This document shows, in pieces, positions 9,433 through 24,700 of a stretch of 28,362 nt of DNA. Below the pieces are notes generated by a model. It had not been told where the DNA came from, did not search any database, and saw only the letters and a list, made by a program, of their open reading frames with translations. The position numbers were made by a program, and so were the translations under genes. This DNA comes from a virus (Duplodnaviria; Caudoviricetes), in IMG/VR virus record IMGVR_UViG_3300030095_001066, positions 1 through 28,362 of that record, one strand, 5' to 3'. Position 1 is the first letter of the stretch, and each line of letters starts with the position of its first letter.

Positions 9433-9571
9433 CGCATTAGCTTGTAGCTTCAGGGCATTCAGTGTAATTAATCGATAGTTATATCCAATAGAAAAAGTTA
9501 TGGCCGTATAGGCCTATCCTCGTGAGGAGAATTTTAGAAAAGTGTAGAAAAAATTAAAGAGTTGTTATTAT

Positions 9572-10684
9572 TTATCTGAACTCCATAAAATCGTAATCAT
9601 TTTGATTTAATGACATACCTCTTTTTTTTAATGCTTTAATAATACTAGGATTTCCTATTTCTGTTTTTAATAATTCAGGATATTTTTTTGTAATGTCTGC
9701 AATATTATCTCCTTTTAATATAGTAGCATACGCTGAATCAAATCCCCTTTCAAAAATACTTACGTTATTTCCAGGGCTAATTCCTTTCTCAAAATTTTTT
9801 ATTCCTGCAAACGGAGATTCTATATTTCTAAATCCTATATTAGTATCACTGACAAGACTTGTTTTCGTAGGTCTTCCTGTACCTATATTATAAAGTTTCT
9901 TTAAAAAATAATCATTGGAACTAAAAACTCTAGCATCTCCAGGAAAAAACTTTTCTGACATTTTTTTAATCTCATCTACTGGTACTTCATATTTTATAAT
10001 TTTAATAGGATTATTACCTAAATTAGATGACATATTATTTGCATACCACAATGCAGTTTGAGGGCTAGTCGTTGCATACATATGAACATTTGAAATTCCA
10101 GCTGGTCTACCCATAGCATCTATTAAAGCAGGGTCTTGCAAAGGGTCAAATCTCATTGGGTTTATTCCTTCAGAAGCTTTATAACTTGATGGCACTAACA
10201 TTTTATCTGGAATCTTATCTTGAGCAAAATAAAATCTTTCAAGTTTAACTGGCTCACCCCAGTCAGCAACATTCTCTAGTGGAATATCTCTTATTATTTT
10301 AGAATCAGGAACAGTTCCTTCTATTCCTTTATAGAAAGTAACGAACTCATCTCCAGATTTTTTAGCAGCTACCGCAGCAAGTCTTGTATTAACAGCAGCA
10401 CCAACAAAAGGAAGTATTGCAGCCATTGATAATGCTGCATCACCATACTTTCCTTCTAGTCCATATAACATAGCATCTGTAAAGTCAGCAATAGCACCAA
10501 CGGGTCCAGGAGTAAATCCCATACCTGCTAATGCAATATGAATATTACGTCTGTTATTATTTTTAACCGCATTTTTTTTAGCACTTGTAGCTTCTGCTGT
10601 GTTTAAACTTTCTGCAGCAGCAGTGTAATTAAACGAAGGAGAACCTACTAAGTCTAACATAGTTATTTTCTTTTTATCTGACAC
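9572..10684 (-). CDS. Polymorphic-toxin-like protein A: shared leader + pre-toxin-TG-like domain + ADP-ribosyltransferase-like C-terminus
   Basis: IHIALAGMGFTPGPVGAIADFTDAMLYGLEGKYGDAALSMAAILPFVG; FYKG...YATTSPQTALWYA...IIKYEVP. Confidence 0.7.
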   Translation of the reverse strand: MSDKKKITMLDLVGSPSFNYTAAAESLNTAEATSAKKNAVKNNNRRNIHIALAGMGFTPGPVGAIADFTDAMLYGLEGKYGDAALSMAAILPFVGAAVNTRLAAVAAKKSGDEFVTFYKGIEGTVPDSKIIRDIPLENVADWGEPVKLERFYFAQDKIPDKMLVPSSYKASEGINPMRFDPLQDPALIDAMGRPAGISNVHMYATTSPQTALWYANNMSSNLGNNPIKIIKYEVPVDEIKKMSEKFFPGDARVFSSNDYFLKKLYNIGTGRPTKTSLVSDTNIGFRNIESPFAGIKNFEKGISPGNNVSIFERGFDSAYATILKGDNIADITKKYPELLKTEIGNPSIIKALKKRGMSLNQNDYDFMEFR

Positions 10685-10686
10685 TT
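10611..10686. repeat. 76-bp exact direct repeat, copy 1 (start and first ~24 codons of protein A)
   Basis: Identical to 11937-12012 by direct comparison. Confidence 0.95.
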
Positions 10687-10687
10687 A

Positions 10688-12010
10688 CTATTTACCTTTT
10701 ATTTTCCTGTATAAAAATTTCATTGGTAATCCTTCATCTAATATCATTTCGTTTATCATGCCAGGACTGGCATTTTCTTTCATTTTAAAACTATCTGAAT
10801 TTAGTTTAGAACCTGTTATAGGATACTTCCTACTTCGCAACTGTCCATCTAAACCTACTGATGTACCCCCCTCTTTATATGAGGTAAATTTAAAATCAAG
10901 TTCATCACTAAATTCTTTTACAAACATATTATCATTTCCTCTTAATTTTCTATTTTGAATTTGTTTTCTAAGATATGATTTAGGTACCTTGAAATGTAAT
11001 ACTTCGTCACCATAACTACTTGCTTCTTTAAAATTTGTAGAAGCCCATACCATTCTTGGGGTAGTATATTCCTGACTTACTTTTGTATAGTCGTAGAATT
11101 TTGTTGGCTGCACAAATTCGTTAAAAGGATTTTTAGGAATTTCTTTTGCACGACCATAAAGGTCATTTCTCCCAAAGTAATCTGTTGGTAAGGTATCTTC
11201 TTTTATTGGTATAAAACCAGGTTCAGTTTTAGTACGTCTTATATTTTCAATAGTATTACCAGTTCCAGCTTGTCTTGAGTATGTAAAATCTGCGTATTTA
11301 CCACTATAATTAGCATCATACAAATCATCAATATATTTTGCTCTTGAATATCCCATCTCTTTGTATTGCTTTGGTCCTACTCTTCTTTGTATATTTGTCA
11401 ATGATAAAGGTATTTCTCCAGTTTTTTTATATCTTCTAAATAAATTCATACCATCTTCTGGGTTAGGGACTACTCTTTGAAATATATATTCTAATTGTAC
11501 ATCATCTAACTGTTTAAAAAACCTGTGCTGTCTTCCAACTGCAAACTTTTGCCCACCTTCTGTTATAACATTATGTTTTATAAATTGAGATTCAAATCCG
11601 TGGTACACATCTATTAGCTTTTCTCCAGATTCCTCAGCTAACTTCATACCTCTTTTAGCAGCTACTGCAGCACCTACTACAGGCAGGATAGAAGCATAAG
11701 ATAACGCTGCATTTCCGTGTTCACCTTCTAAGGAGTATAGTACACCATCTGTTAAATCAGCTATACCACCAGCTATTTCTGTGACAGGTGCAGTTACAGG
11801 GGAAGCTATACTAGCACCAGCTGTAGCTAAACCAAAACGTTGTAATGCTCTGTGAATTTTTTCTCTTCTATCTAATTCAACCACATCTTTCTTTGTCTTT
11901 TTAGTTACACGAATAGCATCTGCTGTATTCAAAGCATCTGCAGCAGCAGTGTAATTAAACGAAGGAGAACCTACTAAGTCTAACATAGTTATTTTCTTTT
12001 TATCTGACAC
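10688..12010 (-). CDS. Polymorphic-toxin-like protein B: shared leader + pre-toxin-TG-like domain + ADP-ribosyltransferase-like C-terminus
   Basis: GGIADLTDGVLYSLEGEHGNAALSYASILPVVG; VYHG...WASTNFKEASSYG..VLHFKVP...NEMIL. Start placed at GTG 12010 by homology with protein A. Confidence 0.72.
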   Translation of the reverse strand: MSDKKKITMLDLVGSPSFNYTAAADALNTADAIRVTKKTKKDVVELDRREKIHRALQRFGLATAGASIASPVTAPVTEIAGGIADLTDGVLYSLEGEHGNAALSYASILPVVGAAVAAKRGMKLAEESGEKLIDVYHGFESQFIKHNVITEGGQKFAVGRQHRFFKQLDDVQLEYIFQRVVPNPEDGMNLFRRYKKTGEIPLSLTNIQRRVGPKQYKEMGYSRAKYIDDLYDANYSGKYADFTYSRQAGTGNTIENIRRTKTEPGFIPIKEDTLPTDYFGRNDLYGRAKEIPKNPFNEFVQPTKFYDYTKVSQEYTTPRMVWASTNFKEASSYGDEVLHFKVPKSYLRKQIQNRKLRGNDNMFVKEFSDELDFKFTSYKEGGTSVGLDGQLRSRKYPITGSKLNSDSFKMKENASPGMINEMILDEGLPMKFLYRKIKGK

Positions 12011-12012
12011 TT
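11937..12012. repeat. 76-bp exact direct repeat, copy 2
   Basis: Identical to 10611-10686; overlaps the stop of the 1188-aa gene. Confidence 0.95.
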
Positions 12013-15000
12013 TCACCTAAACGTTTTTGATTCTTTTTTCTAATTAATTCATACACATCAGCAACTGATGGTTCTAATATAGGATAGTCAGGATTAGCTG
12101 TGTTCCAATTAGTTAATACTTGTCTAGCTTTTTTATCTCTACCTTCATAAACTAATTCAATAATCTCTTTATTGATTCTAGTTCTTTGATACTTTAGCTT
12201 ACCTTTTGTTTGTTCGGCAGATTCAGCTCTCTTTGCAATATTATTCATATTACTACCAAGAACTTTACTATATCTTGTTGTTGACCTACGAAGTGCACCA
12301 GCTACTCCATAATCACCTGACTCATTCATAAGCTGTGATGTTGCAGTCCAAAGTTTTTCTATATCAGACATAATAACTGGTGTAATAGTAAACCTTAAAT
12401 TTTGCATCTTACTTTCTGCTGCTAAAAAATCTCCCATAACACCCATAGCACCAACCGCAGCTATTCTATCAATAACATTTTCTGCATTACGAAAATCATA
12501 ATCATCTCTACCTGATAATTTTTTTTCTATAAAATCGTATGAGTGAAGTAAAGCAGTCCCACCTACATTAGCTGCTACCGCAAGTCTCATTATGGGCATT
12601 ACATTACCATAAGATAAATCAGTTCTTAATTGGTCTTTAATAAACTTAGCCTGTTTTAATGGGAAGCTTTTTAAAACTACAAATGGTCTGAACTTAGGAT
12701 GTGTCATCCATAACAATTCTTTTGTGTGGTTTCTAAGTAGCTGCGTATCTCTACTATATCTAATCGCACCACGAGTAAGTTGCTCTGTAGTTAAATCTTT
12801 ACCATTGAATATAATACCATAGTCATTTTGTAGTTTATCTTTAGCCCAAGCCTCTCTTGCTTTTCCAGCAGTTGTTTCTTTTCTAATTTTATCTCTTACA
12901 CTTTTAGGCATTCCTGTGCCAGTGAATAATCCTGACTTACCTTGTGATATTTTATTTAAGTATTGCATCATATCAACACCAATAGAAGCAGCAGTGTATG
13001 TGTTCATTCTATTTGCAAAATTAAAACCAGAAAATTGTGTTGCTTTCATAGCAATTTTTTCTGATAACGTTTGTCCAGGTTTAAATCCAGATAAAACTTC
13101 CATGTGTTGAATGTTAGAATTTCTTGCAATTCCAGCATCTTTAAGAAATTTACCTCTACCCTTACTAACAAATGTTTTCCCCCAACCTGAAAGTCCAACC
13201 GCATAATTAGCACCTAACAAACTTGAAATCATGGGCTGAAATACATTAGCAAGTGTAGCAGTACCACCTGCAATCTTAGTAGTTATTTGCCATTGAGTTG
13301 CAGTTCTAAAAGCGTTTTTAACAGCAGGGCTATAATTAAAGTAAGGCATTGTTTCAATGGCACCTGTTGCTCTAATTAATACATCTGTTAAAACATTAGC
13401 ACTTAATTGGTCACCTTTTAATTCTAAGTCTCTTATCTTTTGTTCAATTCTTTTATTACCTACTCCTAAAAATTTACCTCTAGCTAATTGGTCTGCCCAA
13501 GTATTAGAATAATTAAGAAAGTTTGAAACGCCATCTGTTTCAAATATATCACTTGAATATTTTTTTAAATTTTTATCCCAGTATATATATGTTTCTCTAC
13601 CTTTCTTTAAATTATGAAATGTTTTTTTGTGGACAGAGTTTAAATCATTTCTAATATTTAAATATGCTCTGTAAAAATCATCTCCAGATGATTCTTTAAC
13701 AAAAGAAAGATACTCTCTAACTCCTTTATTGGAATTGTTTTTTATTTCTTTTTCAATTCTTTGTTTTAAAAAACTTGCTTCATCTTTTGTAAACTCTCTA
13801 CCTGCTCTTACAGCATCATCTAATCCAGGCCTATCTTTTAACATCCTCATTCTAAGCTCTGTAAGTTTATCTTTTACATCAAACCTTAAATCTCTCATAG
13901 CATACTTAGCTATAAACGGTGCAATCTCTGAGTCTATTTTTGCATACTGTTCGTACATATCTGTCATAGCAGCTCTTAGTTTTTTAGCCACATCATCTAA
14001 TTGATTATCTGGTAATAACTCTAATTGTTCTGTTAATTTTACTCTATCGTCTTTTGAAAGCTTACCAAGTTCTTTTAAACTAATATTATGTTTTTTAAAT
14101 ATCTCTCCAAGTGCAGCATCTTTTTCAACATGATAATCGTCTAATAATTTCATAGCCTCTCTTGCTCCTGGTAAAGCACCTTTTCTAGTGACAGTAGATT
14201 CAGGTGAAGCAAACGGTGAGTATTTCATATTAAAAAATGTTGGTAAAGTTTCTGTTCTAAAAGTATGAAACCTGTTAAAAATATTTTTATCTACTTTCTT
14301 TTCAATATCCATTGCCTTAATATTTCTTTCAAGGTTTGAAATATATCTTTGTCCCTCAATTAATCTTACTTGTTCATATTTTTGTTTTGGAGACATTTTA
14401 GATAAGTCACTTTTAATTTTTAAAGTAGGGAACTCTTTAACTCCTTCATTAATAAGCCTATCAAGCTGTGCTACTGGAGCATCTTTACCTTTTTCAAATC
14501 CATACTCTTTGAAAAACTTATTCTTGTTCATTTTTTGACTGATTGTTCCATCTAAAGATTGAAACTCTACAGTGTTTTTTGTTTGTTTTGTAACTCTTAC
14601 TCCACCATCTTGTCCAAAAAATATCTGTGGTTTACCAAGAGATACAAAAGCTTCTTGTTCTATAAGGTCATCTCTAAATTGTTTTTCTTTTGTAGTAAGT
14701 GCTCTGTTACCAAACTTTCTTTTAGATGATTCTATATTTCCTGATATGCTTTTACCTATTCCAGAAAGACCTCCACCCAATACTTTAACACCACCAAGAA
14801 TACCTGCAGTAAATGCTAAATCTTGTGGACTAGGTAGCAGTCTACCTTGTTGAAATGTATATGGTTGTGTAAACCCAAGAACTTCTCCCCCAAGTCCAAG
14901 AGTGCTTTTTAACATATTGGGTGCTTTGTTTCCTACAATATTAGTACCAGCTACTTTACCAAACTTACCTAAACCTATGGAAGCAGCACCAACCAAAGAA

Positions 15001-15566
15001 GCATTAATTGCTTGAGCAAAATCTACATCTTCTTTTTCTATTTTTTGATGTAGCATATCGTGAGTACCGCTAACAATACCTAAACCACCTGCTTCATTAA
15101 TAAGTCTATCACCTTTAGTAATAAATGTTTCAGTAAGTTGTTTGTTTACACGGTTTAAATAAGCAGGTCTAGCACCATTCTCTGCTAGTATTTTAGTAAC
15201 TTGATTAGTTGCAGCCTGAACATTCTTTTTACCAACTGTTTTTGCAATACCTCCAACACCTATTTTTGCAGCAGTACCACCTACAAAGAATGTAGGTAAG
15301 TCTAATACAAGAGCTAAGGCAGTAGAACCAACATCAAACAATGTTCCTTGTTCAAAGTTTGACAAGTCATATCGTTCTCCTTTATTTATTATTTGGTCTA
15401 CTAAACCATATGTGCTTTTATTGTAGGCTTCCTTGAATAGGTTATTAACATAGCCAGGCATACTAATTTTAATTGGTCTGGGTGCACCTTGGTATGTTCT
15501 TTGAGATTTTGCTTTATCTAAGTAGGCATTTGCAACTTGATTGATATATCGTGTATTATCTGGCAT
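12000..15566 (-). CDS. Large internal virion (ejection) protein, 1188 aa
   Basis: Size, Gly/Ala-rich hydrophobic N-terminal third, helical composition, and position after the tail tubular gene as in podoviruses. Confidence 0.65.
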   Translation of the reverse strand: MPDNTRYINQVANAYLDKAKSQRTYQGAPRPIKISMPGYVNNLFKEAYNKSTYGLVDQIINKGERYDLSNFEQGTLFDVGSTALALVLDLPTFFVGGTAAKIGVGGIAKTVGKKNVQAATNQVTKILAENGARPAYLNRVNKQLTETFITKGDRLINEAGGLGIVSGTHDMLHQKIEKEDVDFAQAINASLVGAASIGLGKFGKVAGTNIVGNKAPNMLKSTLGLGGEVLGFTQPYTFQQGRLLPSPQDLAFTAGILGGVKVLGGGLSGIGKSISGNIESSKRKFGNRALTTKEKQFRDDLIEQEAFVSLGKPQIFFGQDGGVRVTKQTKNTVEFQSLDGTISQKMNKNKFFKEYGFEKGKDAPVAQLDRLINEGVKEFPTLKIKSDLSKMSPKQKYEQVRLIEGQRYISNLERNIKAMDIEKKVDKNIFNRFHTFRTETLPTFFNMKYSPFASPESTVTRKGALPGAREAMKLLDDYHVEKDAALGEIFKKHNISLKELGKLSKDDRVKLTEQLELLPDNQLDDVAKKLRAAMTDMYEQYAKIDSEIAPFIAKYAMRDLRFDVKDKLTELRMRMLKDRPGLDDAVRAGREFTKDEASFLKQRIEKEIKNNSNKGVREYLSFVKESSGDDFYRAYLNIRNDLNSVHKKTFHNLKKGRETYIYWDKNLKKYSSDIFETDGVSNFLNYSNTWADQLARGKFLGVGNKRIEQKIRDLELKGDQLSANVLTDVLIRATGAIETMPYFNYSPAVKNAFRTATQWQITTKIAGGTATLANVFQPMISSLLGANYAVGLSGWGKTFVSKGRGKFLKDAGIARNSNIQHMEVLSGFKPGQTLSEKIAMKATQFSGFNFANRMNTYTAASIGVDMMQYLNKISQGKSGLFTGTGMPKSVRDKIRKETTAGKAREAWAKDKLQNDYGIIFNGKDLTTEQLTRGAIRYSRDTQLLRNHTKELLWMTHPKFRPFVVLKSFPLKQAKFIKDQLRTDLSYGNVMPIMRLAVAANVGGTALLHSYDFIEKKLSGRDDYDFRNAENVIDRIAAVGAMGVMGDFLAAESKMQNLRFTITPVIMSDIEKLWTATSQLMNESGDYGVAGALRRSTTRYSKVLGSNMNNIAKRAESAEQTKGKLKYQRTRINKEIIELVYEGRDKKARQVLTNWNTANPDYPILEPSVADVYELIRKKNQKRLGESVR

Positions 15567-15567
15567 A

Positions 15568-16716
15568 TCATTGCTGTAGTCGAACTAATTTTCGTCTTGC
15601 AGTGTCTTTCATTTGTTCAGTAGCAGAGTCACTATTAATTGTTCGTGTTAAAGCATTTATTCTGTTTTGATTAAAAGGTTCTACAATTTGTTCAGCTGTA
15701 GGTAAAGTTACTTCTCCTTCTATAGACAACTTAAGATTACCTTCTTCTGTTCTACTTACAAAAGGTTCTATACCTTCATCTATATCTGCTCCACTAATTT
15801 CTAAATCTACTATTTCTTGAATTAATTCATCTTCTGTTTTTAATTCTTCTGAAAGGTCTTTTACTTGAGAATTTACAACTGGACCAGCATCTGACTCCAT
15901 CATAGAATCCATCTTATTAGTTCCTATTTCTTTTTCAAACTTTACTTTACGTTGATTTCTTTCTTGTTGTACAATGTTTAAACCAGCTGAAAGAGGATTC
16001 TTCACTTGATTGTCTAAATTTTTTATCTCTGATTCTAACTCTAATAATCTTTCAGAATATGTTAATAAATCTTGTTCTAATAATTTTTTTTCATCTTCAC
16101 CTATTTCTGGTGGTTGACCATCTGAAGGTCTTAAGATTGCATTATCAAATGCTTCTATGTCAGCTGCAGCATTTCCTGCTGATTCTCTAAGACGTTGCCT
16201 TTCTGATTCTTTTGCTACTTTCTGTACATTCAACGCATTTATAAATTCTAAGTTTTGAAATTTTTTCATAGCCTCAGTTGCCACACCATCTACTGTTTCT
16301 AGGTAAAAACTATCTGGATTATTTTTAATTTTTTCCCATCCAGAAACAATTTCTCTCCAATCTGAAGTTGTTGGGTCTATTGTTTGCATATCTTGTAAAA
16401 TTATTTTTTCTGAATTGCTAGTAACCCTATCATATTTACCATCCATAGCTGCAACAATTTCATTTAATTCCATTACGCTTGCAAGTTCTCTTTTATCTGA
16501 AAGATAAGGAAATTGTTTTTCATACTTTAAATACAATTCATAGTTGTCACGTTTAGCTTTTTGTTCTAATTGTTTTTCAGCAATTCTTTCTTGTGCTTCT
16601 ATCTGTGCACGCTCTAATCTATCTCTTGTAGTGCCAAATATAGAGTCAACGATATTAGTGCTTGGCTCTTTATAACTAACATTTATATCTCTAGTTAATC
16701 CTTTTCCGTTAGCCAT
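15568..16716 (-). CDS. Putative internal virion protein (382 aa, acidic coiled coil)
   Basis: Synteny and composition; TAATG coupling. Confidence 0.55.
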   Translation of the reverse strand: MANGKGLTRDINVSYKEPSTNIVDSIFGTTRDRLERAQIEAQERIAEKQLEQKAKRDNYELYLKYEKQFPYLSDKRELASVMELNEIVAAMDGKYDRVTSNSEKIILQDMQTIDPTTSDWREIVSGWEKIKNNPDSFYLETVDGVATEAMKKFQNLEFINALNVQKVAKESERQRLRESAGNAAADIEAFDNAILRPSDGQPPEIGEDEKKLLEQDLLTYSERLLELESEIKNLDNQVKNPLSAGLNIVQQERNQRKVKFEKEIGTNKMDSMMESDAGPVVNSQVKDLSEELKTEDELIQEIVDLEISGADIDEGIEPFVSRTEEGNLKLSIEGEVTLPTAEQIVEPFNQNRINALTRTINSDSATEQMKDTARRKLVRLQQ

Positions 16717-18774: not shown

Positions 18775-19161
18775 TTACGGTATTAATATTTTTCCTGCGT
18801 TGCTACCAGTTGTAATTATTTGAGTTTCTCCACTTGCAACCGAATCTCCGTCTTCTGCTAATTTTATAAATGCTTTTTTTCCAGAACCAGCTCCAATCCT
18901 AACTCCTTCTTTAATAATTTTAATAGCGTCTCTTTGAGGTTTCTTTATATCAGAAAACTTTGCAAATGTTTTTAATTCTTGTACTTCTGGACTACTATAC
19001 TCTAGTTCAAATATTTTACCAAATTCTTTTCGTATTACTTTTAGTCTTCCTTTGTGGTATTGTAATATCTCTTCACCATTTTTCATTTGATTAACAGATA
19101 CAGGTCCACGTTTAACTTGTTTGCTTGTTCCAGATACTGCTCTTCCTTTAACTAGTGTCAT
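18775..19161 (-). CDS. Hypothetical protein (128 aa)
   Basis: TAATG-coupled to the tail tubular gene. Confidence 0.7.
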   Translation of the reverse strand: MTLVKGRAVSGTSKQVKRGPVSVNQMKNGEEILQYHKGRLKVIRKEFGKIFELEYSSPEVQELKTFAKFSDIKKPQRDAIKIIKEGVRIGAGSGKKAFIKLAEDGDSVASGETQIITTGSNAGKILIP

Positions 19162-21341
19162 TATCTTACCCCCCTAGACCTATAGACTATTGCTATATCT
19201 TGTATTTCAAAATCAGCTTGTGCATCTCCTGCTATCTTTATCTGCAATGACTTCTTTTTAACCCTAGAGCCACTGGCTACTTGAAACTTTGTAGTTACCA
19301 TTGAACTACTTGTTGAAAATGTATTAGAATCAAAGATATTTGTTGTTGGTGCAGCACCTTCAAACCCACCAGTAATAACTAAATCATCTGCATTCTTATG
19401 TGTTACATAAACTGAATAAAACTTTTTATCTACTGAAGGTTCTCCTAAGTCAATCTCTCCAGTTTGTATATCTATTGTTTGTGCTTGCGGAGATGTGTCA
19501 AATCTTTTAACGGTATACACGTCATTACTACCTGCTCCAGCAGTTGTTCCTGTGGTTAATTCCATACATACTAGCTCTTGGTTGTAAGTAACTAAGTTAG
19601 TTGTCTTCTTACTTACTAAAGTGTTAGTATCATTTATATTAACAAAAGACTTTGTTGCAATGTCATATATATATCCTTTACTGTCAGTAGAACTAGAGTC
19701 TCCTATAACTAGTATTTGATTTTTCTTAGGAATAAATCCAACAGCACAGTTCGTTCCAACAATATTTGTTGCCCATGTATCTTCATCTATAGCTCCACTT
19801 AACGTAGATATGGTATCTGAAAAGCTAAACATTCCATTTTCATTTACCCATACTAATCCTAAATCTGATTTACATACAGCTGCAGGATGGCTGATACCTC
19901 TGTTTTCAAACTCTCCTTCTACATACCAACCAGCATCAGAACCAGATGCAATATTAATAATAAATAGTTTATTCTTTTTGTATACAAATAATCTATCTGA
20001 GAACTCTATAATTTTAACTATAGCGTCACCATCGTTTGTTCCTACATCTAAGTAATATGTCTGTGGAAACGTATCATACTTTCTAACAGGAGTATATTGT
20101 ATTCTATCTCCCATTTCTTTTGTTACGCCTTCGTCATTCACATACAATACATTACCTACAAATGCTCTTTGATTAGCAACAGTAGCTGTCTTATATGAAA
20201 ATGCTTCAACTCCATTGAATGTAATAGCTTTTTCTTCTGGTGCAAATCCGTTAATAGTAGAATAGGTATCTAATCCAGGTGATTTGATAGAATAGGCTCT
20301 AGCATCGGTCTCACTGTTATTGGTGTCATTGGTTACCACATACCCTGATTTGTTTATAAAGGCATCATATTCATCCGCTAAGGACAATCTAGAACCTTTC
20401 TCAAAGTTAACATCAAGTAACAATCTATATTCATCATCTGGATTATTAAAATTCTTTGCATATATTCTCATTCCTTGTAAAAAAGAATTTAAACTATCAT
20501 CTTTAATAGACATACTAGCTATAAAGTATTGAGCATCTGCAATAGAAATAGGGTCTGCTATATTAGTTAACAATGATTCTTGTCCACCAAAATATACATA
20601 GCTAACTCCAATAGCATAGTTTCCTTCTGGCCATAGTCCATCTGTTTTAGAACTACTAGAGCTCATTTCAATTCTAAAATCATCCCCAGAAGCAGGGTCT
20701 ACCCCATCTTCTACATTAGAAGCAGGGTCTACTGGTGCATGAAATGCTCCAGAGTTTAAGGTAAAGTCTGCAGCATCTGGTGCTATCAACCCTCCATTAT
20801 AAAATTTCATTTGGTCTGTTACTGCTGCCGCATAAACATCTGGGTGGTCATCATTAGTCCTTTCAATCCTAGCTAATACTATCTGTTCGTTTCCTGTATT
20901 ACCAAAGTCTGAATCTGCTATGCGTAATCCACCATCAGCATAATAATATACTGGTTGTGCGTCTGTTGCACTACCTGAAGCTAGTAAAGTAGCAGAATCA
21001 AATACTGCTGCACTACCAAATGTAGCACTAGTGCTTAAAAACACCTCTCCCTTTGGAGATGTGTAAGCTAGATATTCTGCAGCTGCGGCTCCACCGCCTG
21101 GTGTGATGTCACTACTAAACTTAAACAATCCATATCCTGGTTGTATTGCAGCGTCACCATCATCTGTTAAGGTAAATGAACTACTAAGGTTGGCAAGCTT
21201 TCCAGTGGTAATTATCTTACCTAGGTGCCCTACATTTACATTAGTAGCTTCTGCTAAGAAGCCTTGTTGTAAGTCTTTAGCAGAGTTTTTATTATTAAGC
21301 CCTGCGTCAAACCTTGCAATATTAAATGCTTGTTTTGCCAT
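19161..21341 (-). CDS. Tail tubular / nozzle protein (T7 gp12 / P22 gp10-like)
   Basis: 726 aa, beta-rich, N-terminal FDAGLN motif, located upstream of the internal proteins. Confidence 0.65.
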   Translation of the reverse strand: MAKQAFNIARFDAGLNNKNSAKDLQQGFLAEATNVNVGHLGKIITTGKLANLSSSFTLTDDGDAAIQPGYGLFKFSSDITPGGGAAAAEYLAYTSPKGEVFLSTSATFGSAAVFDSATLLASGSATDAQPVYYYADGGLRIADSDFGNTGNEQIVLARIERTNDDHPDVYAAAVTDQMKFYNGGLIAPDAADFTLNSGAFHAPVDPASNVEDGVDPASGDDFRIEMSSSSSKTDGLWPEGNYAIGVSYVYFGGQESLLTNIADPISIADAQYFIASMSIKDDSLNSFLQGMRIYAKNFNNPDDEYRLLLDVNFEKGSRLSLADEYDAFINKSGYVVTNDTNNSETDARAYSIKSPGLDTYSTINGFAPEEKAITFNGVEAFSYKTATVANQRAFVGNVLYVNDEGVTKEMGDRIQYTPVRKYDTFPQTYYLDVGTNDGDAIVKIIEFSDRLFVYKKNKLFIINIASGSDAGWYVEGEFENRGISHPAAVCKSDLGLVWVNENGMFSFSDTISTLSGAIDEDTWATNIVGTNCAVGFIPKKNQILVIGDSSSTDSKGYIYDIATKSFVNINDTNTLVSKKTTNLVTYNQELVCMELTTGTTAGAGSNDVYTVKRFDTSPQAQTIDIQTGEIDLGEPSVDKKFYSVYVTHKNADDLVITGGFEGAAPTTNIFDSNTFSTSSSMVTTKFQVASGSRVKKKSLQIKIAGDAQADFEIQDIAIVYRSRGVR

Positions 21342-23050: not shown

Positions 23051-23211
23051 TAATACTTACCACCACGTTTTTTATATTCTCTTACTAACCAAGCATTTGC
23101 ATATGCAGAAGGATATACATCAAACTTACTCTTTGCTGCTGACTTAACCCTAGAGTATAAAGCTTTATTTTTAGGAGTAGGACTACCTTTACGTTTCTTT
23201 TTCTTAGCCAT
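23050..23211 (-). CDS. Basic conserved phage protein (53 aa; YPSAYANAWLVREYKKRGG; not in ORF track)
   Basis: TAATG-coupled at both ends and fills the gap exactly. Confidence 0.8.
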   Translation of the reverse strand: MAKKKKRKGSPTPKNKALYSRVKSAAKSKFDVYPSAYANAWLVREYKKRGGKY

Positions 23212-24302
23212 TAGTATATCAACCAGTTAAGTCCAACCTTCGATTCGTATGATTGTACGTCATACATCGAAAGAAATCTTCCTTCTAAAAATACTCCAAA
23301 CTTATTAGTAAGCTTCCAACCATATACCATTCCTAAGTCGTAATCCATGCCATTCTCGGCTACTTCATAGTTAAAGGCATAGTCAGACATACCTTTAGTT
23401 ACTGGATAAGCTGTAACCCACATATGCAACCAGTTCTTAGGTGTGTATTTATAATAGTCTGCACCTACTGATAAACTTAGTTCGTTCTGGTATCCTAACT
23501 CTTTTGCATATTCTTCATTATATTGTTTAACAATCTCTCCATAAACTTGTTTATAGAATTGTTCATCTGTATTAGCAACAAGGTTTCCTTCTGCATCATA
23601 CCATTTAAAATCAAAGTAGCTATATCCATATTGTGTGAATTGTTCTACAAACTCATCTGAATAACCATAGAAATATGCAAACTCCCAAAAAGGTGTAGAC
23701 TCTTCTATGTCAATTCCTTGTTCAGCCCACCATAAATCAATAGGTCTAAAGTCTAAGTATGCTGGATGCATTCTACCAGCTACGCCTAATGATAGTGCTA
23801 GATTACCTACATCCTTTTTGTAACGCATATCTAATGCTGCAAACTCTACATCTTCTAATCCTCTGGAATCATAGTTAGCTTTTACTAAAAAATTCTTTCC
23901 CATATATCGTAACATATATTGTTCGTTTACAAACTCTTCTTCAAACTCTTTGTGGTCAGAGTATTGTATTACATACTCCCAGCCAGTAGGTACATTACCA
24001 ATAGCAACACTTTCATTAATAGGTGCTTCATCTCCTGTGTACCAAACTTCTGGTTTATTCTCATAGCCAAACCTTGCTAGTTTTCTAATACCAAATGTCA
24101 TAATAGTGTGGTCATCTAGTTCTTCTTGTAACTCTTGTAATTGCCCACCAGACACTTGATATTGTAATTCTTTAGTTACAGGACTACTAAAGCTATAAGC
24201 ACCATATATAGTGCTAAACTTAAAAAAGTCTTGTGCTGTTAATGCTCCCATAAATAACACGCAACCAAATAATTGTTTAAACCATCTTGCTAAATATATC
24301 AT
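23211..24302 (-). CDS. Putative outer-membrane beta-barrel protein
   Basis: Signal peptide (ALTA-Q), Tyr/Trp-rich alternating strands, C-terminal KVGLNWLIY beta-signal-like end. Confidence 0.7.
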   Translation of the reverse strand: MIYLARWFKQLFGCVLFMGALTAQDFFKFSTIYGAYSFSSPVTKELQYQVSGGQLQELQEELDDHTIMTFGIRKLARFGYENKPEVWYTGDEAPINESVAIGNVPTGWEYVIQYSDHKEFEEEFVNEQYMLRYMGKNFLVKANYDSRGLEDVEFAALDMRYKKDVGNLALSLGVAGRMHPAYLDFRPIDLWWAEQGIDIEESTPFWEFAYFYGYSDEFVEQFTQYGYSYFDFKWYDAEGNLVANTDEQFYKQVYGEIVKQYNEEYAKELGYQNELSLSVGADYYKYTPKNWLHMWVTAYPVTKGMSDYAFNYEVAENGMDYDLGMVYGWKLTNKFGVFLEGRFLSMYDVQSYESKVGLNWLIY

Positions 24303-24700
24303 TGAAACTTCCTTAGTTGTATTTCATCAATTTCATCTTTGATTTCCTTGATGATTTTATTTTTATCTAAATTGAAACTTAATCCAGCTTCAAATCTTTT
24401 TACTTCTTTACCATATTCAAACATAATTATTGTTGGCACAGAAACTATCTTCCACTCATTTGTAATAATTGCACCATATTCTTTGTCGTCTATACTTGCA
24501 TTAAACCATACACAATTATTTAAACCATTTAAATCTAACGATGATTTAAAATTCCAATCTGCATTTACTTGAACTATAACGCATTCATCCTGACTCAATA
24601 ATTGAATCTGTTGTAAATCTTTTAAACTACTTTGAGCATATAAGGGCGATACAGATAAACAAATACCAACCAAATATGAAATACCATATAACCAATTCAT
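24299..24700 (-). CDS. Exported thioredoxin-fold protein lacking CxxC
   Basis: Signal peptide; VQVNADWN in place of WCxxC; IVSVPTIIMFEYGKEVKRF cis-Pro region. Confidence 0.75.
   Translation of the reverse strand: MNWLYGISYLVGICLSVSPLYAQSSLKDLQQIQLLSQDECVIVQVNADWNFKSSLDLNGLNNCVWFNASIDDKEYGAIITNEWKIVSVPTIIMFEYGKEVKRFEAGLSFNLDKNKIIKEIKDEIDEIQLRKFQ

What the first reader, a model, noticed from the sequence alone, without database searches (positions are those of the whole stretch)
9572..12012. Tandem polymorphic ADP-ribosyltransferase-like effectors with a pre-toxin domain at the end of the ejection-protein operon, without immunity genes
Seen: both genes have the same three-part layout. First, an identical N-terminal leader (MSDKKKITMLDLVGSPSFNYTAAA). 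Second, a homologous Gly/Ala hydrophobic domain (IH.AL...G.IAD.TD..LY.LEG..G.AALS.A.ILP.VGAAV). Third, C-termini that I could not align except for ordered motifs Y[K/H]G, aromatic-A-[T/S]-T-[S/N]...A..Y and a hydrophobic strand ending in VP. Protein B also has a late NEMIL glutamate, which protein A appears to lack. The genes are 3 nt apart, directly follow the 1188-aa internal protein gene, and have no immunity-sized ORF after them. Known: the middle domain resembles the pre-toxin TG region before toxin tips in Rhs/LXG polymorphic toxins, the motif order fits the ART fold, and T4 Alt is a capsid-packaged, injected ART. Inference: a phage polymorphic effector system distinct from MuF toxins, in which exchangeable enzymes are packaged and injected with the DNA to modify host targets such as RNA polymerase, defence proteins or nucleic acids.
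Basis: partly seen in the sequence, partly recalled or inferred. Interest (0 to 1): 0.9.

Follow-up and report, generated by a model that had tools for sequence, protein, structure and literature searches.

The report
Swappable enzyme cassettes in marine phages
This marine phage carries two related genes with a shared front end and a variable back end predicted to fold like ADP-ribose-transferring enzymes; close relatives swap, double or drop such cassettes with no antidote gene, so they are likely enzymes packed into the virus particle and injected to alter the host.

Summary
The layout is real. Genes A (370 aa) and B (440 aa) share a 24-residue leader and a Gly/Ala helical module, lie 3 nt apart and have no immunity gene. 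Both tips are predicted ART-fold, with modest Z (best 5.5 and 5.7), but the named rows that span a tip are ART-superfamily. Correction: the two tips are distant homologues, not unrelated. B keeps an invariant Glu; A-type tips lack it. Polymorphism is shown: 92-97% identical N-modules carry 25-30% identical tips, and near-identical phages hold A+B, A, B or an unrelated tip at this site (one contig lacks both genes). The module defines a larger family in uncultured phages (1,437 profile hits). Compact members sit beside terminase or portal genes (78 of 80 loci) and carry ART-like, GNAT or unknown tips. The module matches the region before toxin tips in Rhs proteins but not Pfam PT-TG or MuF. Packaging, injection, catalysis and target are inferred only. 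Verdict: a new variant of phage-delivered polymorphic effectors.

The parts
9572..10684 (-). Gene A, 370 aa: leader + helical pre-tip module (short form) + A-type ART-like tip without the catalytic Glu
10688..12010 (-). Gene B, 440 aa: leader + helical pre-tip module (long form) + B-type ART-like tip with H137 and E421
10613..10684 (-). 24-codon leader of A, identical in DNA to that of B; likely 5' homology arm for exchange
11939..12010 (-). 24-codon leader of B
10349..10552 (-). Gly/Ala helical module of A (residues about 45-112), homologous to the region before toxin tips in Rhs-type proteins
11630..11863 (-). Gly/Ala helical module of B (residues about 50-127), with a 14-residue insert
9575..10348 (-). 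A-type tip (residues 113-370), predicted ART fold; K119, Y203/T205, Y214, V308
10691..11629 (-). B-type tip (residues 128-440), predicted ART fold with a large insert; H137, W322/S324, Y333, E421
12000..15566 (-). 1188-aa gene directly upstream; likely internal or ejection protein by position only
9440..9555 (.). Intergenic stretch nearly invariant among five phages with different tips; likely 3' homology arm, own function unknown
   Evidence: no Rfam, tRNA or folding signal

Best explanation
A and B are two copies of an exchangeable phage cassette, a conserved leader and helical module joined to a variable tip predicted to have the ADP-ribosyltransferase fold, and they are likely loaded into the virion through that module and injected with the DNA to modify host defence or gene-expression components. 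Shown: the modular layout, the swapping, doubling and loss of cassettes in close relatives, the tie to virion-assembly operons and the lack of an immunity gene. Predicted: the fold. Inferred: late synthesis, packaging, injection, NAD+ use and targets. B (His/Glu kept) would be a working transferase. A (no Glu) would act by a Glu-independent route, on nucleic acid or small molecules, or would bind NAD+/ADP-ribose. No immunity gene is needed if the target is narrow and non-essential or the cell lyses anyway. Exchange likely runs by recombination between the shared leader and conserved downstream DNA.
Confidence: 0.58

Rival explanations
1. The proteins are made late and act inside the producing cell, not in the next host: they would disable defences that sense terminase, portal or capsid, or block superinfection, and the module would tether them to the membrane or the assembling head.
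For: The compact family sits beside terminase and portal genes (78 of 80 loci); PMC9503650 (section 27) names this as an alternative reading of such contexts. The module is mildly hydrophobic (19-residue hydropathy peak about 1.5). Lack of immunity fits a cell that will lyse.
Against: The module is the one found before delivered toxin tips in Rhs-type and eCIS-core proteins, which points to trafficking. The leader family uses two other sites, among tail and putative ejection genes, far from terminase.
Confidence: 0.2
2. Most members, A included, are not transferases: the fold would serve as an NAD+/ADP-ribose or nucleic-acid binder, a sponge or decoy against NAD-based defence signals, or an NADase/phosphorylase; only the B branch would transfer ADP-ribose.
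For: Glu absent in 0 of 24 A-type and present in 5 of 48 compact tips, while the strand-1 Arg is kept in 48 of 49. A-type tips are still under purifying selection (dN/dS about 0.27-0.43 in six pairs). RES-family ARTs replace S and E by Y and N and phosphorolyse NAD+ (PMC9503650 passage). RES and Tpt1 entries are among the fold matches.
Against: Compatible with packaging, so only partly a rival. Interchange with GNAT tips suggests the slot holds modifying enzymes. Loop register before the last strand varies, so an acidic residue may be supplied from a neighbouring position.
Confidence: 0.14
3. The cassettes are largely neutral or selfish passengers that spread by recombination at conserved flanks, with no role in infection.
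For: The site can be empty, 53-aa remnants exist in L011 and L012, and one B-type pair has dN/dS near 1.
Against: No nuclease or recombinase tip in the leader family; dN<dS in 12 of 12 tip pairs; the module is kept at three kinds of site across many phages; tips are drawn from conflict-type enzyme classes.
Confidence: 0.05

Closest known systems
MuF polymorphic toxins (Jamet et al. 2017, PMC5576092; Zhang et al. 2012, PMC3482391; passages read)
   Same: Phage-encoded; conserved N-terminal part with variable enzymatic C-terminus; 14% of MuF toxins are putative ARTs; genes near portal or terminase; delivery by the head hypothesised.
   Different: No MuF domain here. [quoted passage not shown]
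Phage polyvalent proteins with ART-PolyVal (Iyer et al. 2017, PMC5512222; passages read)
   Same: Predicted virion-packaged; ART and GNAT domains occur together; the third tip type (phrog_2579) also occurs beside two ART-PolyVal domains in a virion-operon protein of an unrelated phage.
   Different: Polyvalent proteins are large multi-domain chains with H-Y-D ARTs; these are single-tip cassettes of 200-450 aa, without a PF18760 match, varied by gene-level exchange and tandem copies.
T4 Alt (packaged, injected ART; PMC5512222 and PMC9503650 passages)
   Same: Late virion-operon ART without an immunity gene; model for how B may work.
   Different: Alt is R-S-E clade with no pre-tip module and no polymorphism; B has His/Glu and A has Lys/Val at those sites.
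Rhs/T6SS ART tips TreX and RhsP2, and pre-toxin regions such as PT-TG (PMC11606950 passages; PMC13483458 passages and section 13)
   Same: TreX and RhsP2 are among the best fold matches; the module matches the region just before DddA-like, Ntox5, GIY-YIG, AHH and REase-7 tips or a HINT domain.
   Different: Those are bacterial, secreted and paired with immunity proteins; here the module is near the N-terminus of a phage protein, with no Rhs core, and does not match PF14449.
AcrIF11 (PMC12421852; abstract and section 5 read)
   Same: Phage ART with a narrow defence target and no need for an antidote: a model for lack of immunity.
   Different: A small stand-alone early protein with no trafficking module; no sequence or fold link was tested here.

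Membership tests
ART superfamily | Split beta-sheet ART fold | tested here: met
ART superfamily | His or Arg on strand 1, aromatic/Ser/Thr on strand 2 | tested here: met
   B H137, W322-A-S-T; A K119 (Arg in at least 90% of alignment A2), Y203-A-T-T; Arg in 48 of 49 compact tips
ART superfamily (B) | Catalytic acidic residue on strand 5 | tested here: met
   E421 invariant in 11 of 11 B-type sequences; its place in the pocket was not inspected in the model
ART superfamily (A) | Catalytic acidic residue on strand 5 | tested here: not met
   V308; Val, Ile or Tyr in 24 of 24 A-type genes
ART superfamily | NAD+-dependent activity | not testable with these tools
   Needs biochemistry
T4 Alt / R-S-E clade | R-S-E triad | tested here: not met
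   A has K-T-V, B has H-S-E; fold matches mix both clades
PT-TG (PF14449) | Match to the Pfam model | tested here: not met
   0 of 14 N-parts (E up to 10), 0 of 142 profile hits (E up to 0.01; best 5 families shown per protein), A and B
Pre-toxin region of Rhs-type toxins | Sequence homology and position just before a variable tip | tested here: met
   Profile hits at E about 1e-7 to 1e-9 directly before known toxin or HINT domains in P0137, P0141, P0151, P0153, P0158, P0159, P0162
Polymorphic toxin systems | Conserved N-terminal part with exchanged C-terminal tips | tested here: met
Polymorphic toxin systems | Cognate immunity gene downstream | tested here: not met
   22 of 22 second-site loci run straight into a virion gene; small ORFs after 29 of 88 compact-family genes follow the site, not the tip
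Polymorphic toxin systems | Toxicity to a target cell | not testable with these tools
   Needs expression assays
MuF toxins | N-terminal MuF domain | tested here: not met
   No MuF-family Pfam or PHROG hit in A, B or homologues
MuF toxins | Temperate phage or prophage | tested here: inconclusive
   No relative in GTDB genomes by two pattern scans; the contig is partial
Phage polyvalent proteins | Large multi-domain chain with ART-PolyVal (PF18760) | tested here: not met
   Single-tip proteins; no PF18760 hit; longer fused forms not found in a weak search
Virion-packaged effectors | Presence in the virion and injection | not testable with these tools
   Gene context only

The most novel reading that the evidence does not exclude
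A widespread, immunity-free polymorphic effector system of uncultured marine podovirus-like phages, in which a pre-toxin module shared with Rhs toxins is the capsid-loading tag for swappable ART-like, acetyltransferase and unknown enzymes, most of them ART-fold proteins working without the catalytic glutamate.
Probability: 0.45. Interest if true: 0.85.

Novelty: new variant of a known kind. Interest (0 to 1): 0.68.

Why it matters
Known phage-delivered effectors use MuF or giant polyvalent chains, and ARTs were reported in only 3% of sipho- and podoviruses among sequenced isolates (PMC9503650, section 13). This family would add a third delivery format that is common in uncultured marine phages and segregates as presence, absence and swap alleles within one phage population, a direct trace of an arms race. 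The module gives a search handle for new host-modifying enzymes (several tip classes have no family), offers a short candidate packaging tag, and gives a testable role to a pre-toxin region whose function is open. A large branch without the catalytic glutamate may hold new NAD+ chemistry.

Full report
Observation. The two genes are as described. A is 9572-10684 (-), 370 aa; B is 10688-12010 (-), 440 aa; they are 3 nt apart and B overlaps the end of the 1188-aa gene. They share 24 identical residues, 74 identical bases from the start codon, and 48% identity over the first 130-150 residues; BLASTP aligns nothing further. No same-strand ORF of 50 aa or more follows A. The window is part of a tailed phage: tail fibre, holin, Erf, SSB and an exonuclease have PHROG or Pfam hits. 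Runs that hold it are marine where an origin is given. It has no cultured relative in INPHARED.

A and B are homologues. Profile comparison aligns strands 2-3 at 81% probability, E 1.2e-5. A profile of 49 compact relatives, which lack the inserts, hits 25 of 25 A-type and 17 of 17 B-type tips. So the pair is two branches of one family. B has H137, W322-A-S-T, Y333 and E421; E421 is invariant in 11 of 11 B-type sequences. A has K119, Y203-A-T-T, Y214 and V308, and none of 24 A-type genes has Glu there. Among compact tips, strand-1 Arg is kept in 48 of 49 but the Glu site is E in only 5 of 48. Tips are still under purifying selection: dN<dS in 12 of 12 non-identical pairs, about 0.27-0.43 for A-type and 0.25-0.95 for B-type (simple pairwise count).

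Polymorphism. Of 44 loci fetched, 42 had a leader ORF by my pattern (several are the same phage). Twelve lie after the large gene, as here; 30 lie upstream of a ~710-aa virion gene that is 47% identical to window 19161-21341 and hits an internal-virion PHROG. Twelve loci have two leader genes in tandem. Tips fall into A-like, B-like, a third class (phrog_2579, E 4e-26) and a 60-residue fourth. The most discordant pairs have N-parts 92-97% identical and tips 25-30% identical, and both forms of the module occur with more than one tip class. L013 matches the window at 95-98% over long flank stretches yet has one gene with the third tip. Contigs from four runs show, at this exact site, B alone (join 9551-10685), A directly after another large-gene allele, the third tip, and neither gene (join 9554-12009 with arms of 179 and 165 nt). 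Each joint rests on one contig at 88% likeness and was not re-tested. L011 and L012 carry a 53-aa leader-plus-tail remnant. A ~115-nt intergenic stretch below the site is nearly invariant. I infer exchange by recombination between the leader and conserved downstream DNA.

The module. A profile of 14 N-parts found 1,437 proteins at E<=0.001 among 1.84 billion representatives; I examined the best 150. Seventy-seven of these carry the ART-like tip; others carry GNAT domains, the third tip, or tips of no family. Lower in the list the same module lies directly before DddA-like, Ntox5, GIY-YIG, AHH and REase-7 tips or a HINT domain in Rhs-type proteins, and in eCIS-core proteins. The best 80 of 110 viral loci of the compact form were fetched: 78 have terminase or portal genes within 3 kb, and 8 have two module genes. 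After 88 module genes comes the large terminase (36), portal (6), another module gene (5), a small ORF (29), another gene (6) or the contig end (6). The small ORFs depend on the site, not on the tip, and mostly also occur without a cassette, so they are not immunity genes. In the leader family, all 22 second-site loci with a visible next gene run into the virion gene within 44 nt.

How it likely works. The genes would be made late with virion proteins. The module, which elsewhere precedes delivered toxin tips, would load the protein into the head or ejection channel. After injection the tip would modify a host target; B fits a transferase, whereas A needs Glu-independent chemistry or only binds NAD+ or ADP-ribose. 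Lack of immunity and the empty allele fit a narrow, host-dependent target such as a defence system, as for AcrIF11 (PMC12421852, abstract), better than a lethal toxin. Everything after gene context is inference. The main rival is action in the producing cell, which PMC9503650 (section 27) also allows for ARTs near packaging genes.

Comparison. It works like T4 Alt, polyvalent-protein ARTs and MuF toxins but belongs to none: no R-S-E triad, no PF18760, no MuF, no immunity ORF. Six literature searches showed no description of this family; I read passages or named sections of seven papers and no supplements. I rate it a new variant of phage-delivered polymorphic effectors, interest 0.68.

Noticed in passing
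P0210 residues about 420-790 (homologue of window 12000-15566): A 1620-aa homologue of the 1188-aa protein has a ~370-residue insert with ART-like motifs by eye (Y-H, F-F-S-E-S, late E-x-E); no Pfam or PHROG hit. The large protein may itself be turning polyvalent.
   Followed up: partly
window 9440-9555: Intergenic stretch between converging operons is nearly invariant in five phages with different cassettes; no Rfam, tRNA or folding signal.
   Followed up: partly
window 12000-16716 versus L002 671-6000, L001 747-6001: The 382-aa and 1188-aa genes are also swapped between otherwise 95-98% identical phages: starts conserved, middles diverged. The hypervariable island is about 7 kb, not only the cassettes.
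   Followed up: partly
L002 6001-6900; L045 2527-3651; L046 5533-7572: The phrog_2579 domain, annotated 'ParB C-terminal domain', has ART-like motif order by eye, occurs in 180 phage records, and sits with a weak GNAT match in Gordonia phage Skog and with two ART-PolyVal domains in a P22-like phage. The annotation may be misleading.
   Followed up: partly
L090 3299-4423, L094 2705-3670, P0108, P0121, P0136: An unnamed tip class with a conserved Q-P-F-Y-R-S ... G-x-W-L-P-F motif on the same module; further unnamed classes in L121/L122/P0055/P0064/P0086/P0092 and P0123/P0127.
   Followed up: no
window 23211-24700: A conserved pair in the lysis region: a 133-aa thioredoxin-like protein without CxxC (weak Pfam, E 0.028) and a 363-aa protein, both with hydrophobic N-termini; in relatives they lie just upstream of the second cassette site.
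   Followed up: no
L011 8236-8397, L012 3824-3985, P0012: In-frame internal deletions join the leader to the tail of an A-type gene at short matching sequences: decaying cassettes.
   Followed up: partly
L018 23-547: Leader and module with only a 60-residue tip unrelated to the others, in tandem with an A-type gene; also P0032.
   Followed up: no
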